From assembly GCA_963514005.1 (NCBI GenBank), contig CAUPSL010000234.1, positions 62,001 through 126,000 of the forward strand: a DNA stretch of 64,000 nt, written 5' to 3'. The stretch comes from Raja brachyura. Its lineage: Eukaryota. Shown one piece after another: positions 24,001 through 45,000 of this stretch. Every line of letters starts with the position of its first letter. Position 1 is the first letter of the stretch. Position numbers: made by a program.

Positions 24001-27000
24001 AGATGAGAAATAGGAAGCTTACAAACCGGACAAGGTCTGGTGTTGTCGTCACCGATCAACTGGACTCTGACGACTTGCATTCATTTTTCAGACTCACTTT
24101 ATTGACGTGTGCACAAGGAGAGCAGCACAGTCCCAGTTACCTGCTGCCCTGAAATTCCACTCAGCATTTATACAGAGTTTGACCCTTGAAATTATGCACA
24201 CTCTAATTTCTTATAATCAAACACAATACATTCTCCTCAACACTTATACAAATACATTAACACTAACACAAATAAAACTACATGCTGTTCAATTCTTTAT
24301 TGGTATTTAATTTCAGTGCACCATGGAAAGCATTTTATCGGGATGCATCACAGCATGGTTTGGGAACAGCTCCATCCAAGAAATAGCAGCGAATTGCGGT
24401 TGCAGACCAGATCATCGCGCAAACTAACCTCCCTTCCACTGACTCCATTTACATCTCACGCTGCCTCGGCAGGGCCAGCAGCATAATCAAGGACCAGTCA
24501 CACCCTGGCCACTCTCTCTTCTCCCCTCTCCCATCAGACAAAAAGTATAGAAGTGTGAAAACGCACACCTCCAGATTCAGGGACAGTTTCTTCCCAGCTG
24601 TTATCAAGCAACTGAACCACCCCCTCACCAACCAGAGCGCAGTCCTGAGCAATCACTGGAGACCCTCGGACTACGTTTAATCGGACATTACCTTGCACAA
24701 AATATTATTCCCTTCTTCATGTATCTGTATACTGTGGAGGGCTTGATTGTAATTATATAGTCTTTCTGGTGACTGGTTAGCACGCAACAAAAAACATTTT
24801 CACTGTACCTCGGTCTACGTGACAATAAACCAAACCAAACAACCCTCGGCCCACACAATGGGCATTGCATCCCCCACCCTACACCATTACTCCTTCCACC
24901 ATCGACACTTCACGCTGCCTCAGGAAAGCAGCCAACATCATCAAGGAACCCACATCCCAGTCATTGTCTCTACTCCCCTCTCCAGATGATACAAGAAGCT
25001 TGAAATCACGTAGCAGCAGGTTCAAGAACAGATTTACTTTAAGCACCAACTGGCAGATGTTTAATTGTAACATTGGAATAGAAGAGTTACCAATGATGAG
25101 TTGTCTCTTGTATTCAACATCATCCATGCACACCCACTGAGGACAGAGACTCCTCAAACAACTATCCCCCTTGTTAGACACAGATGTCATGTGTGGCTCA
25201 GTGGTGAGCAATGTCACCTCATGAAAGCTGCTGTCTTTGGGATGAGGCTTTAAGGAGGTGCTTCTCAGGTAGATGTCAGCAAAGCCACGACATGACCACG
25301 ACTGTTCTGCTCAGAGTCCTGAGCTAATATTTATCCTGAAACCAAACAGCTAAACACAGGTGGGCTGTGGGAAGTGAGGGGAAAGAGGGAGAAAGCAAGG
25401 ACTACCTGACGCAGGAGATGTGGCCAGATTTGGTTTGCCGTGTGGGAGCTTGCACCAGGTACATTGTCACAGCTGGGCTAAGAAAGACCATGGTCCAATC
25501 AGTTCACCTTGTGTCACCCTGACGGTCGTATGGCAGAGTGATAATGGAGTTAACGACCAACGACCACAATCAATCTCTGTCTTCAACTGGTCCAGGCGTG
25601 GGTGTCAGAACACCCAATTGTGGAAGGTTTTGGACACATTGATCCAACAACACCTCTTTCTCCCAGAATGTGCTTCTCCTAGAATGTGCACACCTCACAT
25701 CCCAGCTACCCATGTACTGCCACCCAAAACACACCAGTCACAGACACGCACACAAAACATTTTTCACATCATATTTATTGAACTTGTATTGGTACATTGA
25801 CACATACATAGATTTAATACCTCGTGTGATCCCATACAGGGTTAATATCTGTTCAAGCATGACAAAAAAAGTTCTGTAAATGTATCCAGAAGCTCAGACA
25901 TTTGTGGTGAATCATGGCTGTCACTTAAGTTGTAGCTCGTGTGGAATTATGTTTTTAATGATTTACAAAGGTTCACATTTCGACGATGTATTAGGGAACT
26001 GACCCATCATCCTCTGGGTCAGTTAATAAATCCAGAAATGAACAAAACAAGTGTTTGAGAAATGAATCATGTTACACACAAGATTTAAAGCTATCAGCCA
26101 GAACAAGTGAGACATTGACCAGGGTGGGTTTGCTGTGAGATTTATTGATGCTTCTGAATAGGCTGGTTGTGATGGACCCGTGTCCCACAACACAGGAGAA
26201 GGTGGTGCCACTGTTCCACTCCTCTGGAGAAACCTTCAACTGACTGGTCATGGTGTTCCACCCATTCCTGGTGTCCTTGGTCACGGGCTGGTTCATGATC
26301 CCTGTCTTCAGAAGGGTGTCGTTGGCCATCCAGGCCACATAGATGTCTGCAGGAGAGAATCTGGTGACCAGGCACGTCAAGGTGGCCGTCTCATCCGTCT
26401 CCACCTCATCCAATGAAGGGGGGAGGAGGTAGACTTGAGGACGACTCTCAACTCCATCTGGGAACAGAGAGAACCCGAGTTAGACTGAATCTGTCCGTAA
26501 TTCTGTACTTACCCAATACATTCCAATCTTATACTGACATTAACATTGTTTACATCCTGGGGGACCTCAGTTCACCTGAAACTAAAGGCTTTTCCTTTCT
26601 GCTCATTGTAGGGATGTATGGAATAGAAATCATGCTTCTGGTGCATTTTACAGGGCGACATGGTGGCGCAGCGGTAGAATTGCTGCCTACAATGCTAGAG
26701 ACATGGGTTTGATCCCGACTATGGGTAGTGCCTGTATGGAGTTTGTACGTGACCGCGTGGGTTTTCTCCGGGTGCTCAGGTTTCCTCCCACACTCCAAAA
26801 ACATACATGTTCTCTGTATGGCGGGACTGTCATATGCTGAGAGCGACTGGGCTTGTATACTCTTGAATATAGAAGGATGAGAGGGAATCTGATCGAAACA
26901 TAAGATCATTAAGGGTTTGGACACGTTAGAGGCAGGAAACATGTTCCAGATGTTCAGGGAGTCCAGAACCAGGGGCCACAGTTTAAGAATAAGGGGTTAG

Positions 27001-42000: not shown

Positions 42001-45000
42001 GATGATCTGAGGCTGGTAGTCCTTGACCAGACAGAGGATGCTGATCTCTTGGCCAGATTCTGTGTTGCAGGAAGAGGTGATGTGGACTGAAGGCAAGGTC
42101 TTAATATCTGAAATGTAAATAAAGTAACAGTTGGTTCTGTAGTAAATGGATTATTACCAGCGCATGCAACAGGTTCATGCTGATTGCTGAGTAAATGCAG
42201 CTGATTCAGGCTGAGAGAAGGCCAGGCAAGGCAGAGAAATGGTTCCTTGACCAATGCCTTTCACACCCTGCATGACCAAGCAGTGAAATGCTGATCTCAC
42301 ACTGGTGAAGCAACTTCTGCCAACCAGAGGGACAAACAGGCCTGTGCTGTGGGTGATGAAGCACACGGTACAGTGCCAGATGGACCATATCCACAACCAC
42401 CGGGCCAAATGGTGCTGGATCTGGCCTGTTGTGGATCTTCCTCAACGCTGGGCCCCGGGGAGTGTTGTACAACTAAGGGATCTTGGAGTACAAGTACACA
42501 GATCCCAGGAAGCATTGTCAGGTAAATAGGTTGGAAATAAAAGCTCTTCATGAGTCAGGGAATTGATATACAGTAACCCCTCATTTTAACGGACCCCTTT
42601 ATTACAGATTTTGGATATAGCGGACGGACCTGCCGATACCATCCTGCCATGCATGGATCTTGACCGCTTAGAGCCCCGGCTTCCAACTCCACCCCTGACT
42701 CGCAAGTGAGCCCTTCTCCACCCACCACCATATGGTCCGTGATGCTGCTGTTGTTGCGGTTCACGGCGCCCCCGAGATGAACGCTTTCTTCAAGCTGCCG
42801 TCCTCGACAGGACGTGCTTGGTCACCATGAGGCTTCCTCCCCTCCCACCTGCTGCTGCTCCAACCTGCCTGCTCTTCACTTTGTCCACTTCCTGCTTGAC
42901 CACCATCTCCCCCTCGTCCTCCCCTCGCTGTGTCCACTCGGCCTCTTCCCCCTCCCCCCCGGCATCTCCTCCTCCCTGGAGTCACCAACATATTGCACCT
43001 AGGAAGCAGCAGCTGGTGAGAGGAGAGAGTGCCCCATGGTGACCGTGCACCCTGTCAGTGGCAGCAGCCTGAGGAAAGCACTGCCAGCCAGAGGCTACAA
43101 TGTGAGCCACAACCAAAGCCCTGTCACCGGACCGTGCGGTGGATGAAGAAGGACGCGCTGGTGCAGAGCACAGGCATTGACGCCTGGTTTTAAAGTGAAA
43201 TGACACAAATTAGCCAGAATAAGCAACCTACCAGAGGACTGGGAGAAATTCAGAGTCCAGCAGAGGAGGACAAAGGGCATAATTAGGAAAGGGAAAATAG
43301 ATTATGAAAGAAAAATGGCAGGGAACATAAAAACTGACTGCAAAGGTTTTTATAGATATGTGAAGAGAAAAATAATAATTAAAACAAATGTAGGTCGCTT
43401 GCAGTCAGAATCAGGTGAATTGACCATGGGGAACATGGACATGGCAGACCAGTTGAATAACAACTTTGGTTCTGTCTTCACTAAGGAAAACATAAATAAT
43501 CTGCCGGAATAGCAGGGGACCGGGGGTCAAATAAGATGGAGGAACTGAGTGAAATCCAGGTTAGCCGGGAAGTGGTATTGGGTAAATTGAAAGGATTAAA
43601 GGCCAATAAATCCCCAGGGACAGATAGGCTGCATCCCAGAGTACTCAAGGAAGTAGCTACAGAAATAGTGGATGCATTAGTGATAAATTTTTCTAAACTG
43701 TTTAGATTCTGGAGTAGTTCCTGAGGATTGGAGGGTAGCTAAAAAATGGAGGGAGAGAGAAAACAGGGAATTACAGACCAGTTAGTCTAACATCGGTCGT
43801 GGGGAAAATGCTAGTCAGTTATTAAAGATGGGGTATCAGCACCTTTGGAAAGTGGTGAAATCATTGGACAAAGTCAGCATGGATTTACGAAAGGTAAATC
43901 ATGTCTGATGAATCTTATAGAATTTTTCGAGGATGTAACTAGTAGAGTAGATAAGGGAGAACCAGTGGATGTGTTATATCTGGACTTTCAGAAGACTTTC
44001 GACAAGGTCCCGCATAAGAGATTAGTATACAAACTTAAAGCACATGGTATTAGGGGTTCAGTATTGATGTGGATCGAGAACTGGCTGGCAGACAGGAAGC
44101 AAAGGGTAGGAGTAAATGGGTCCTTTTCAGAATGACAGGCAGTGACTAGTGGTGTACCGCAAGGCTCAGTGCTGGGACCCCAGCTATTTACAATATATAT
44201 TAACGATGGTGGACAAGGGAATTAAATGCAACATCTGCAAGTTTGCGGATGACACGAAGCTGGGGGGCAGTGTTAGGTGTGAGGAGGATGCTAGGAGGCT
44301 GCAAGGTGACTTCGATAGGCTGGGTGAGTGGGCAAATGCATGGCAGATGCAGTATAATGTGGATAAATGTGAGGTTATCCACTTTGGTGGCAAAAACAGG
44401 AGGGTATACTATTATCTGAATGGTGGCCGATTAGGAAAAGGGGAGATGCAACGAGACCTGGGTGTCATGGTACACCAGTCATTGAAAGTAGGCATGCAGG
44501 TGCAGCAGGCAGTGAAGAAAGCGAATGGTATGTTAGCATTCATAGCAAAAGGATATGAATATAGGAGCAGGGAGGTTCTACTGAAGTTGTACAGGGGTTT
44601 GGTGAGACCACACCTGGAGTATTGCGTACAGTTTTGGTCTCCAAATCTGAGGAAAGACATTCTTGCCATGGAGGGGGTACAGAGAAATTTCACCAGACTG
44701 ATTCCTGGGATGTCAGGACTTTCATATGAGGAAAGACTGGATAGACTCGGCTTGTACTCGGTAGAATTTAGAAGATTGAGGGGGGATCTTATAGAAACGT
44801 ACAAAATTCTTAGGGGGTTGGACAGGCTAGATGCACGAAGATTGTTCCCGATGTTGGGGAAGTCCAGAACAAGGGGTCACAGTTTAAGGATAAGGGGGAA
44901 GTCTTTTAGGACCGAGATGAGAAAAACATTTTTCACACAGAGAGTGGTGAGTCTCTGGAATTCTCTGCCAGAAGGTAGTTGAGGCCAGTTCATTGGCTAT

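What the first reader, a model, noticed from the sequence alone, without database searches (positions are those of the whole stretch)
26072..42107. Predicted 10-C-domain secreted IgW (C1-C2-[C3-C4]x3-C5-C6)
Seen: two extra intact C3-C4 pairs (b, c) between C4a and C5. Established: the canonical long IgW has six C domains. Inference: this locus can encode secreted chains of 2, 6, 8 or 10 C domains by pairwise skipping, echoing the C-exon plasticity of the IgD/IgW lineage.
Basis: partly seen in the sequence, partly recalled or inferred. Interest (0 to 1): 0.65.

Follow-up and report, generated by a model that had tools for sequence, protein, structure and literature searches.

The report
Shark-type IgW gene, eighteen constant exons
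This is an intact antibody heavy-chain gene of the IgW class, of the kind found in sharks and rays, in which one pair of constant-domain exons has been copied to seven pairs, so it could encode unusually long antibodies, although no transcript was available to show that it does.

Summary
On the minus strand, two further intact C3-C4 exon pairs (b, c) lie between C4a and C5, and both peptides named in the finding are there. The description is incomplete, though. Four more intact pairs (d-g, 23996-16891) lie downstream of the C6/tailpiece exon and upstream of a transmembrane exon, TM1 (12052-11913). The gene is a germline VH-D1-D2-JH IgW cluster with 18 C exons. All 35 expected splice dinucleotides are present, and all 17 internal C exons are multiples of three. 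The six extra pairs vary less than their own introns: 44 of 621 exon columns against 158 of 752, with no indels against 18. The dN/dS ratio is about 0.52. A 10-C secreted chain is therefore a legitimate in-frame prediction, but no transcript or protein data could be consulted. Pairs d-g can only enter transcripts that read through the C6 poly(A) site, most likely membrane forms. Reviews give 6-8 C exons for cartilaginous-fish IgW, and they describe post-secretory tandem blocks in coelacanth IgW1. I rate this a new variant of a known kind, of moderate interest.

The parts
52956..53001 (-). Leader exon (ATG at 53001, donor GT after 52956, phase 1)
   Evidence: Read directly
52555..52850 (-). Germline VH exon, followed by a heptamer (52554-52548), a 23-nt spacer and a nonamer (52524-52516)
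   Evidence: sequence; Pfam V-set E 6.8e-13
52267..52279 (-). D1, flanked by RSSs with 12-nt and 22-nt spacers
   Evidence: Read directly
51866..51874 (-). D2, flanked by RSSs with 12-nt spacers on both sides (3' heptamer non-canonical after CAC)
   Evidence: Read directly
51425..51472 (-). JH (WGAGT motif), preceded by an RSS with a 23-nt spacer; donor GT at 51424
46372..48583 (.). Tandem array of about 108 copies of a 20-nt unit inside the J-C1 intron. It is G-rich on the + strand and rich in AGCT.
41799..42107 (-). C1 exon (309 nt), with an extra Cys near its start
40322..40624 (-). C2 exon. The acceptor is ambiguous (40624 or 40642); both are in phase and both have a weak pyrimidine tract.
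36930..37087 (-). Candidate short-form (2-C) secretory exon: 51 codons, strong pyrimidine tract, phase-1 acceptor, ends with Cys-Tyr-stop, AATAAA 28 nt after the stop
   Evidence: no Pfam family; single copy in the window
36082..36384 (-). C3a exon
35215..35532 (-). C4a exon
33251..33553 (-). C3b exon
32504..32821 (-). C4b exon
31188..31490 (-). C3c exon
30451..30768 (-). C4c exon
29264..29584 (-). C5 exon, with an extra Cys at its N-terminal end
26072..26457 (-). C6 exon with a mu-like secretory tailpiece (N-glycosylation site, penultimate Cys) and stop; ATTAAA 112 nt and AATAAA 292 nt after the stop
23694..23996 (-). C3d exon (outside the finding's coordinates)
22949..23266 (-). C4d exon
21655..21957 (-). 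C3e exon
20913..21230 (-). C4e exon
19600..19902 (-). C3f exon
18897..19214 (-). C4f exon
17603..17905 (-). C3g exon
16891..17208 (-). C4g exon
11913..12052 (-). TM1 exon (140 nt): phase-1 acceptor, acidic extracellular stretch, hydrophobic span with a Tyr-Ser-Thr core, donor GT. It is the only copy in the window. TM2 was not identified.
32822..33250 (-). C3b-C4b intron, almost wholly a hairpin. Equivalent hairpin introns lie in units c-g, but not in unit a.
34345..34527 (.). 183-bp segment repeated at 29708-29890 (95.6% identical). The two copies bracket a LINE fragment plus units b and c.

Best explanation
The window holds one intact, unrearranged IgW (omega) heavy-chain cluster of the cartilaginous-fish type, on the minus strand. 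Its order is leader, VH, D1, D2, JH, a 9-kb intron, C1, C2, a candidate short-form secretory exon, C3a-C4a, C3b-C4b, C3c-C4c, C5, C6 with secretory tailpiece, C3d-C4d, C3e-C4e, C3f-C4f, C3g-C4g, TM1. The C3-C4 module has been amplified to seven copies: three before and four after the secretory terminal exon. Copies b-g form one young family, kept similar by unequal crossing-over or gene conversion across the C5-C6 block. Copy a is an old, diverged paralogue. By homology with IgNAR, C3 is a non-dimerising CH2-like domain and C4 a dimerising CH3-like domain.

Every internal C exon is phase 1 at both ends, so any combination stays in frame. Transcripts ending at the C6 poly(A) signals can carry up to 10 C domains; fewer domains result if C3-C4 material is skipped, and two if the exon after C2 is used. 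Membrane transcripts must read through the C6 poly(A) site. C6 has no donor, so they must splice from a C2, C4 or C5 donor to TM1. Pairs d-g can therefore only be used in such read-through, most likely membrane, forms.

Shown here: the anatomy, the intact reading frames and splice dinucleotides, the constraint relative to introns, and the domain homologies. Inferred: that the extra exons are actually included in mRNA, and in which isoforms.
For: Anatomy.

Intactness: 18 of 18 C exons have an AG acceptor and 17 of 17 internal ones a GT donor. All 17 internal exons are multiples of 3, and there are no stops.

Domain type: 10 of 10 scanned exons pass the Pfam C1-set cut-off, and V passes V-set.

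Class: there are six distinct C types. C3a-C5 are 39% identical (E 1e-18) and C4a-C6 33% (E 2e-11). C5 matches IgNAR chain 2mkl_C at E 3.8e-31, with 53 of 99 aligned residues identical by my count. C3b and C3a match IgNAR chain 4q9b_A at 5.7e-20 and 1.2e-20. C6 aligns to Cmu4/Calpha3 through the tailpiece to the chain end.

Germline cluster: the RSS spacers read V-23, 12-D1-22, 12-D2-12, 23-J.

Constraint on b-g: 44 of 621 exon columns are variable against 158 of 752 ungapped non-coding columns (Fisher p 1.4e-13). There are 0 gap runs in exons against 18 in non-coding sequence, where 12.4 would be expected in the exons (P 4e-6). Without CpG sites the figures are 35 of 577 against 112 of 663, p 2e-9. 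Differences from the majority sequence are 20 synonymous and 34 non-synonymous, omega about 0.52, binomial p 0.018. The pattern holds within both arrays (per-pair table).

One transcription unit: the window has a single TM1 and a single C1, C2, C5 and C6. C6 has no GT at the position where I recall the mammalian Cmu4 cryptic donor.

One family across C5-C6: the b+c block is 94.1% identical to d+e over 3841 bp, b and d share an extra upstream flank, and nearest-neighbour relations change along the unit.

Precedent: nurse shark IgW has 6-8 C exons and secreted forms with 2, 4, 6 or 8 C domains, plus membrane forms with 2 or 4. Coelacanth IgW1 has its secreted-form exons followed by four tandem blocks and then TM exons (passages of reviews). 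IgNAR C1 and C3 dimerise, and IgNAR C1 resembles IgW C2.
Against: No transcript, EST or proteome data could be consulted, so inclusion of any extra exon is unproven.

A 270-column block of the inter-unit spacer is as conserved as the exons: 10 of 270 variable columns among units b, d, e and f, against 12 of 303 and 14 of 318 for the exons. This block is the antisense of a transposon ORF and has stops in all three sense frames. Low exon divergence could therefore owe something to conversion tracts rather than to selection.

Omega of 0.52 is only modest constraint, and it rests on 54 changes.

TM2 was not found, and a sense-oriented LINE begins about 60 bp after the TM1 donor. This could impair membrane transcripts.

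The C2 acceptor is weak and ambiguous. Copy number and the order of a tandem array cannot be verified without reads.
Confidence: 0.65

Rival explanations
1. The extra pairs are recent genomic duplicates that are never, or almost never, spliced into mRNA. Secreted chains would be the canonical C1-C2-C3a-C4a-C5-C6, and the duplicates would stay intact only because they are young and homogenised by gene conversion.
For: Copies b-g differ by only 2-3% in their exons. A non-exonic spacer block is equally conserved. The unit tree is star-like with supports of 59-73, and the units are mosaic, as expected under ongoing conversion. Pair a differs in having no hairpin intron. No expression data were available.
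Against: 35 of 35 splice dinucleotides are kept. There are no indels in 621 exon columns where 12.4 were expected at the non-coding rate. Non-synonymous changes are under-represented. Flanks and introns of the same units have diverged by 5-11%, so the copies are not very young. Reviews report 8-C secreted IgW in nurse shark, so duplicated C exons are used elsewhere.
Confidence: 0.15
2. The copy number of the array, or the placement of the C5-C6 block inside it, is an assembly error. The real locus would be, for example, C1-C2-[C3-C4]xN-C5-C6-TM, or would have fewer copies.
For: Tandem units of about 2 kb at 90-94% identity are hard to assemble. No reads could be inspected.
Against: There is no N in the window. 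Every copy carries private substitutions and indels. The joins are specific. A 183-bp direct repeat brackets the b-c block. Units b and d share about 112 bp of upstream flank that the inner units lack. Unit g ends earlier than the others, and unique sequence follows C6.
Confidence: 0.1
3. Pairs d-g and TM1 are the remnant of a second, downstream IgW cluster that lost its V, C1 and C2. They would not be part of the transcription unit of the upstream cluster.
For: Cartilaginous-fish Ig genes occur as many clusters. The d array starts with the same flank as the b array.
Against: The upstream cluster would then have no transmembrane exon, because only one TM1 is found in the window. There is no second C5/C6 or V-D-J between C6 and TM1. 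The gap from C6 to C3d is only 2.1 kb. The coelacanth precedent has the same layout within one gene.
Confidence: 0.1

Closest known systems
Nurse shark IgW clusters (Zhang, Du Pasquier and Hsu 2013). The paper was not held; I saw only passages of reviews PMC4279169, PMC5192425 and PMC6795676, plus my recollection of its abstract.
   Same: A single VH-D-D-JH cluster, C exons beyond the canonical six, interspersed secretory exons, a tailpiece on the last C exon, and isoforms that differ in C-domain number.
   Different: The reviews give 6-8 C exons and at most 8 C domains in secreted forms. Here there are 18 C exons, 10 of them upstream of the tailpiece and 8 between the tailpiece exon and TM1. 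I could not check which exons are duplicated in nurse shark.
Coelacanth IgW1 (Saha et al. 2014). The paper was not held; it is described in a passage of review PMC5192425.
   Same: [quoted passage not shown]
   Different: The coelacanth block has three exons (C3-C4-C5) and its locus has many V, D and J segments. Here the block is a C3-C4 pair in a one-V cluster, and two further copies lie upstream of C5.
Teleost and sturgeon IgD (zebrafish 17 C exons with four C2-C3-C4 blocks; sturgeon transcripts with 3-19 CH domains and repeated C2-C3). Passage of PMC5192425.
   Same: The same IgD/IgW lineage, tandem amplification of a block of adjacent C exons, and variable inclusion.
   Different: Those genes sit in translocon loci, use a Cmu1 chimera and repeat different blocks. 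The repeats lie before the last C exon, not after a secretory exon.
UrIg2 of sharks (PMC12227049; passages seen)
   Same: Two adjacent C exons duplicated three times or more and homogenised by gene conversion, giving 9-11 C domains. The PDB chain 9dmx_A appears among the hits.
   Different: UrIg2 does not rearrange. Here V, D1, D2 and J carry RSSs, and the IgNAR chains match better than UrIg2.
IgNAR
   Same: C5 and C3 are the closest relatives of the two solved IgNAR constant domains. Reviews state that the last four IgNAR C domains are homologous to IgW.
   Different: IgNAR has a single-domain V with three D segments, five C domains and no light-chain partner. Here V is a conventional V-set VH with two D segments and six C types.

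Membership tests
IgW (omega) heavy chain of cartilaginous fish | Cluster (minilocus) organisation: one VH, D segments and one JH with RSSs directly upstream of one set of C exons | tested here: met
   Leader, VH, D1, D2 and JH lie within 1.6 kb. The RSS spacers are V-23, 12-D1-22, 12-D2-12 and 23-J. That this is the usual shark heavy-chain layout is recalled, not tested.
IgW (omega) heavy chain of cartilaginous fish | Six distinct C1-set constant-domain types C1-C6, with C3/C5 and C4/C6 as paralogous pairs | tested here: met
   Pfam C1-set is above the cut-off in 10 of 10 exons scanned. C3a-C5 are 39% identical (E 1e-18) and C4a-C6 33% (E 2e-11), while the cross pairs score lower.
IgW (omega) heavy chain of cartilaginous fish | C3-C6 homologous to IgNAR C2-C5 | tested here: met
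   C5 against IgNAR chain 2mkl_C gives E 3.8e-31. C3b and C3a against 4q9b_A give 5.7e-20 and 1.2e-20, the best single-domain hits in PDB. The tool does not say which IgNAR domain each entry is.
IgW (omega) heavy chain of cartilaginous fish | Last C exon carries a secretory tailpiece; TM exons lie downstream | tested here: met
   The C6 tail has an N-glycosylation site and a penultimate Cys, and aligns to the Cmu4/Calpha3 tailpieces. TM1 is at 12052-11913. TM2 was not found.
IgW (omega) heavy chain of cartilaginous fish | Closest sequence relatives are named IgW chains of sharks, skates or rays | not testable with these tools
IgW (omega) heavy chain of cartilaginous fish | Short (2-C) secreted form with its own secretory exon | tested here: inconclusive
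   There is a candidate exon at 37087-36930 with a strong acceptor, a Cys-containing tail and AATAAA 28 nt after the stop. No sequence of a known short-form tail was available to compare it with.
IgD/IgW genes with tandemly amplified C-exon blocks | A block of adjacent C exons repeated head to tail, with introns and spacers included in the repeat | tested here: met
   Six units of about 2.0 kb are 90-94% identical over exons, introns and spacers.
IgD/IgW genes with tandemly amplified C-exon blocks | Repeated exons are included in mRNA | not testable with these tools
   No expression data were available. Indirect evidence: intact frames and splice sites and constraint.
IgNAR | Single-domain V with three D segments and five C domains, lacking a light-chain-binding first domain | tested here: not met
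   V is a conventional VH (V-set) with two D segments. There are six C types, and C1 has an extra Cys near its start.
UrIg2 | Non-rearranging VJ exon | tested here: not met
   V, D1, D2 and J are separate and flanked by RSSs.

The most novel reading that the evidence does not exclude
The amplified C3-C4 module may be a length-tuning device controlled by RNA structure. In each of the six young units, and not in the old unit a, the C3-C4 intron is almost entirely a hairpin of about 340 nt (-160 to -272 kcal/mol). Arms from different units pair as stably as arms of the same unit. Folding within a unit would hold a C3 donor next to its own C4 acceptor. Pairing between units would loop out C4 of one unit and C3 of the next, removing exactly one Fc-like module in frame.

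Together with the four pairs placed after the secretory exon, this would let one cluster make secreted IgW with 6, 8 or 10 C domains. It would also allow B-cell receptors with a stalk of up to 16 C domains, the membrane-only modules being a cartilaginous-fish parallel to coelacanth IgW1.
Probability: 0.12. Interest if true: 0.8.

Novelty: new variant of a known kind. Interest (0 to 1): 0.45.

Why it matters
IgW/IgD is the antibody class whose function is least understood, and its hallmark is a variable number of constant domains. If real, this cluster would extend the range stated for cartilaginous fish from 6-8 C exons to 18. It would predict secreted chains with four stacked Fc-like modules, with a constant region of about 1060 codons by adding the exon lengths. 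It would also show in a shark-type cluster the layout so far described for coelacanth, with duplicated C exons between the secretory exon and the TM exons. That points to recurrent selection for long-stalked membrane IgW/IgD. The locus also offers copy-specific markers, so isoform use can be tested directly with long-read cDNA or peptides.

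Tried and rejected
1. Second copies of C1, C2, C5, C6 or TM1, which would indicate a second cluster: none found by tblastn.

2. A 57-codon Cys-rich ORF at 38923-38748 as the short-form tail. It has no AATAAA or ATTAAA within 600 nt and abuts a LINE, so I left it unassigned.

3. Read-through tails after the C4 donors as secretory tails. They end at different points in different copies because of indels. C4e and C4g run on to a Cys-rich end with AATAAA 171-179 nt later, but b, c, d and f stop earlier. I did not adopt them.

4. The conserved spacer block as a hidden exon. It has stops in all three sense frames, so I rejected it; it remains unexplained.

5. The order of duplication from a maximum-likelihood tree of the six units. 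Supports were only 59-73 and nearest neighbours change along the unit, so no order is claimed.

6. The Atlas look-alike search with C1 gave only generic C1-set clusters. Pfam found nothing for the two candidate tails or for TM1.

7. Comparing C3a and C3b for which is closer to IgNAR gave no difference: 77.1 against 74.4 bits to 4q9b_A.

8. Literature. Zhang 2013 and Saha 2014 are not held. One search was badly framed, because it let the term IgW drop out, and was uninformative. PMC13007054 had nothing on gene structure. Searches listed no paper whose title or abstract describes a cartilaginous-fish IgW with more than 8 C exons. This is a limited check of the held library only, and supplements were closed.

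9. TM2 was not searched for systematically, because I recall it being only a few codons long in other Ig genes.

10. Structure prediction, fold search and complex prediction were not used. The genome-contig collection holds only bacteria and archaea and was not used.

Full report
**What is there.** The gene lies on the minus strand. Stop-to-stop ORF lists and tblastn of each candidate exon against the window show Ig constant-domain exons from 42.1 kb down to 16.9 kb. Splice-site mapping and per-exon extraction give these exons:

| Exon(s) | Coordinates |
|---|---|
| C1 | 42107-41799 |
| C2 | 40624 (or 40642)-40322 |
| C3a, C4a | 36384-36082, 35532-35215 |
| C3b, C4b | 33553-33251, 32821-32504 |
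| C3c, C4c | 31490-31188, 30768-30451 |
| C5 | 29584-29264 |
| C6 with stop | 26457-26072 |

Four more pairs follow C6: d 23996-22949, e 21957-20913, f 19902-18897 and g 17905-16891. A motif scan found one transmembrane exon, TM1, at 12052-11913, with a phase-1 acceptor and a GT donor. It is the only copy in the window. Upstream lie a leader, a germline VH, two D segments and one JH. Their recombination signals have spacers of 23 (V), 12 and 22 (D1), 12 and 12 (D2), and 23 (J). V is a Pfam V-set domain. The window has no N, and nothing in it was taken for human.

**Intactness.** Counting, 18 of 18 C exons have an AG acceptor and 17 of 17 internal exons a GT donor. All 17 internal exons are multiples of three, and none has a stop. 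An earlier count said 36 of 36; the right count is 35 of 35. Ten of the 18 exons were scanned against Pfam, and 10 of 10 pass the C1-set cut-off.

**Which immunoglobulin.** The class assignment rests on architecture and on solved structures:
- There are six distinct C types, with C3 closest to C5 and C4 closest to C6.
- C5 matches the IgNAR chain 2mkl_C at E 3.8e-31, with 53 of 99 aligned residues identical by my count of the printed alignment.
- C3b and C3a match IgNAR chain 4q9b_A at 5.7e-20 and 1.2e-20.
- C6 aligns with Cmu4 and Calpha3 right through the tailpiece.
- Reviews state that the last four IgNAR domains are homologous to IgW, that IgNAR C1 resembles IgW C2, and that IgNAR C1 and C3 dimerise.

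By that register, C4 is the dimerising CH3-like member of each pair and C3 the CH2-like one. This is inference. IgNAR itself and the non-rearranging UrIg2 are excluded by the conventional VH, the two D segments and the RSSs.

**The repeat family.** Units b-g are about 2.0 kb long and 90-94% identical over exons, introns and spacers. The b+c block matches d+e at 94.1% over 3841 bp. Pair a is old: its exons are about 61-73% identical in protein to b-g, with dS of about 0.45-0.49.

A 183-bp segment (34527-34345) is repeated just upstream of C5 (29890-29708), and the two copies bracket a LINE fragment plus b and c. Units b and d share about 112 bp of upstream flank that the inner units lack. Unit g is cut short at 16563. 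Nearest-neighbour relations change along the unit: b is closest to d upstream and in the intron, while c is closest to d downstream. The maximum-likelihood tree has supports of only 59-73. I read this as tandem amplification with continuing exchange between the two arrays across C5-C6. No order of events is claimed.

**Are the extra exons maintained?**
- Among b-g, mean pairwise substitution divergence is 2.05% (C3) and 3.27% (C4) with no gaps. It is 5.4%, 10.7% and 7.4% in the upstream 120 nt, the C3-C4 intron and the downstream 320 nt, with about 30 gap columns per pair in the last two.
- By columns, 44 of 621 exon columns vary against 158 of 752 ungapped non-coding columns (Fisher p 1.4e-13). 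Exons have 0 gap runs against 18 in non-coding sequence, where 12.4 were expected (P 4e-6).
- Leaving out CpG sites gives 35 of 577 against 112 of 663 (p 2e-9).
- Differences from the majority sequence are 20 synonymous and 34 non-synonymous, omega about 0.52, p 0.018. Pairwise omega is 0.25-0.86.
- The pattern is seen within b-c and within d-g.

Against this, a 270-column block of the inter-unit spacer is just as conserved: 10 of 270 variable columns in units b, d, e and f. It is the antisense of a transposon ORF and has stops in all three sense frames. Conversion tracts, not only selection, may therefore contribute to the low exon divergence.

**How it probably works.** All junctions are phase 1, including J to C1 and the TM1 acceptor, so every exon subset is in frame.
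- Transcripts ending at the C6 signals (ATTAAA 112 nt and AATAAA 292 nt after the stop) can hold C1-C2-[C3-C4]x3-C5-C6. That is 10 C domains, or about 1060 constant-region codons by adding the exon lengths.
- A 51-codon exon at 37087-36930 has a strong acceptor, a tail ending Cys-Tyr-stop and AATAAA 28 nt after the stop. It is a good candidate for the 2-C short form.
- C6 has no GT where I recall the mammalian Cmu4 cryptic donor to be. This fits the reviews' statement that shark membrane IgW has 2 or 4 C domains. Membrane transcripts must then read through the C6 site and splice a C2, C4 or C5 donor to TM1.
- Pairs d-g lie in exactly that read-through interval, so they can only contribute to such forms.
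- The same layout is described for coelacanth IgW1: secreted-form exons, then four tandem C blocks, then TM exons (review passage).

None of these isoforms could be checked against transcripts. 

**Comparison with what is known.** Reviews give 6-8 C exons for cartilaginous-fish IgW, with secreted forms of 2, 4, 6 or 8 C domains. They give up to 11 C domains in lungfish, 17 exons in zebrafish IgD and 3-19 CH domains in sturgeon. C-exon block amplification in this lineage is thus well known. What is new here is the extent in a shark-type cluster (18 C exons, 10 before the tailpiece) and the post-secretory array.

My searches listed no paper describing this for a cartilaginous fish. The key primary papers were not held and supplements were closed, so 'not in print' is not established.

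**Rivals.** I considered three rival readings: unused young duplicates, an assembly error in the array, and a remnant of a second cluster. They are weighed in their own sections, and I consider none of them as likely as the single-gene reading. Only reads and cDNA can settle them.

**Verdict.** This is a new variant of a known kind, of moderate interest.

Noticed in passing
46372-48583 (J-C1 intron): A 2.2-kb array of about 108 copies of a 20-nt unit, 63% G on the + strand. AGCT occurs at 48.4 per kb against 3.4 per kb in the rest of the window. From memory, its motifs resemble tetrapod switch regions, and it sits where a switch region would sit, although reviews say cartilaginous fish lack switch regions. 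However, the G-rich strand is the template strand of this minus-strand gene.
   Followed up: partly
32822-33250 and the C3-C4 introns of units c-g; related copy at 36431-36790 upstream of C3a: Each C3-C4 intron of b-g is almost entirely one hairpin. For unit b the energy is -242.9 kcal/mol, z -19, and 0 of 100 shuffles fold as well. The six introns range from -160 to -272 kcal/mol, against -137 for the longer intron of unit a. Arms of different units pair as stably as arms of one unit. This is possibly a MITE, and possibly relevant to which exons are joined.
   Followed up: partly
about 32084-31815 and the equivalent spacer blocks of units d, e, f: A spacer block as conserved as the exons: 10 of 270 variable columns. 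It is the antisense of a transposon ORF that stays open on the + strand in several units, and it has stops in all three sense frames. It is unexplained; it could be a conversion hotspot or a regulatory element.
   Followed up: partly
8968-11851: LINE-like ORFs (endonuclease and reverse transcriptase) in the same orientation as the gene start about 60 bp after the TM1 donor. TM2 was not identified.
   Followed up: no
38748-38923: A 57-codon ORF with 5 Cys behind a phase-1 AG, between C2 and C3a and next to a LINE fragment. There is no poly(A) hexamer within 600 nt. It could be a second secretory tail or nothing.
   Followed up: partly
20812-20912 and 16790-16890: Reading through the C4e and C4g donors gives 33-codon tails that end in a Cys-rich stretch, with AATAAA 171-179 nt after the stop. 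The other copies stop earlier.
   Followed up: partly
29253-29263: Reading through the C5 donor adds three codons (Gly-Thr-Cys) and a stop, with AATAAA 215 nt later. This is probably chance.
   Followed up: no
34345-34527 and 29708-29890: A 183-bp direct repeat (95.6% identical) brackets a LINE fragment plus units b and c. This looks like the footprint of the event that placed the b-c array in the C4a-C5 intron.
   Followed up: partly
whole window, e.g. 8.9-11.9 kb, 27.8-28.9 kb, 39.0-39.9 kb, 43.2-45.0 kb, 57.6-64.0 kb: Many fragments of one LINE family (reverse-transcriptase ORFs on both strands) are scattered through the introns and flanks of the cluster.
   Followed up: no
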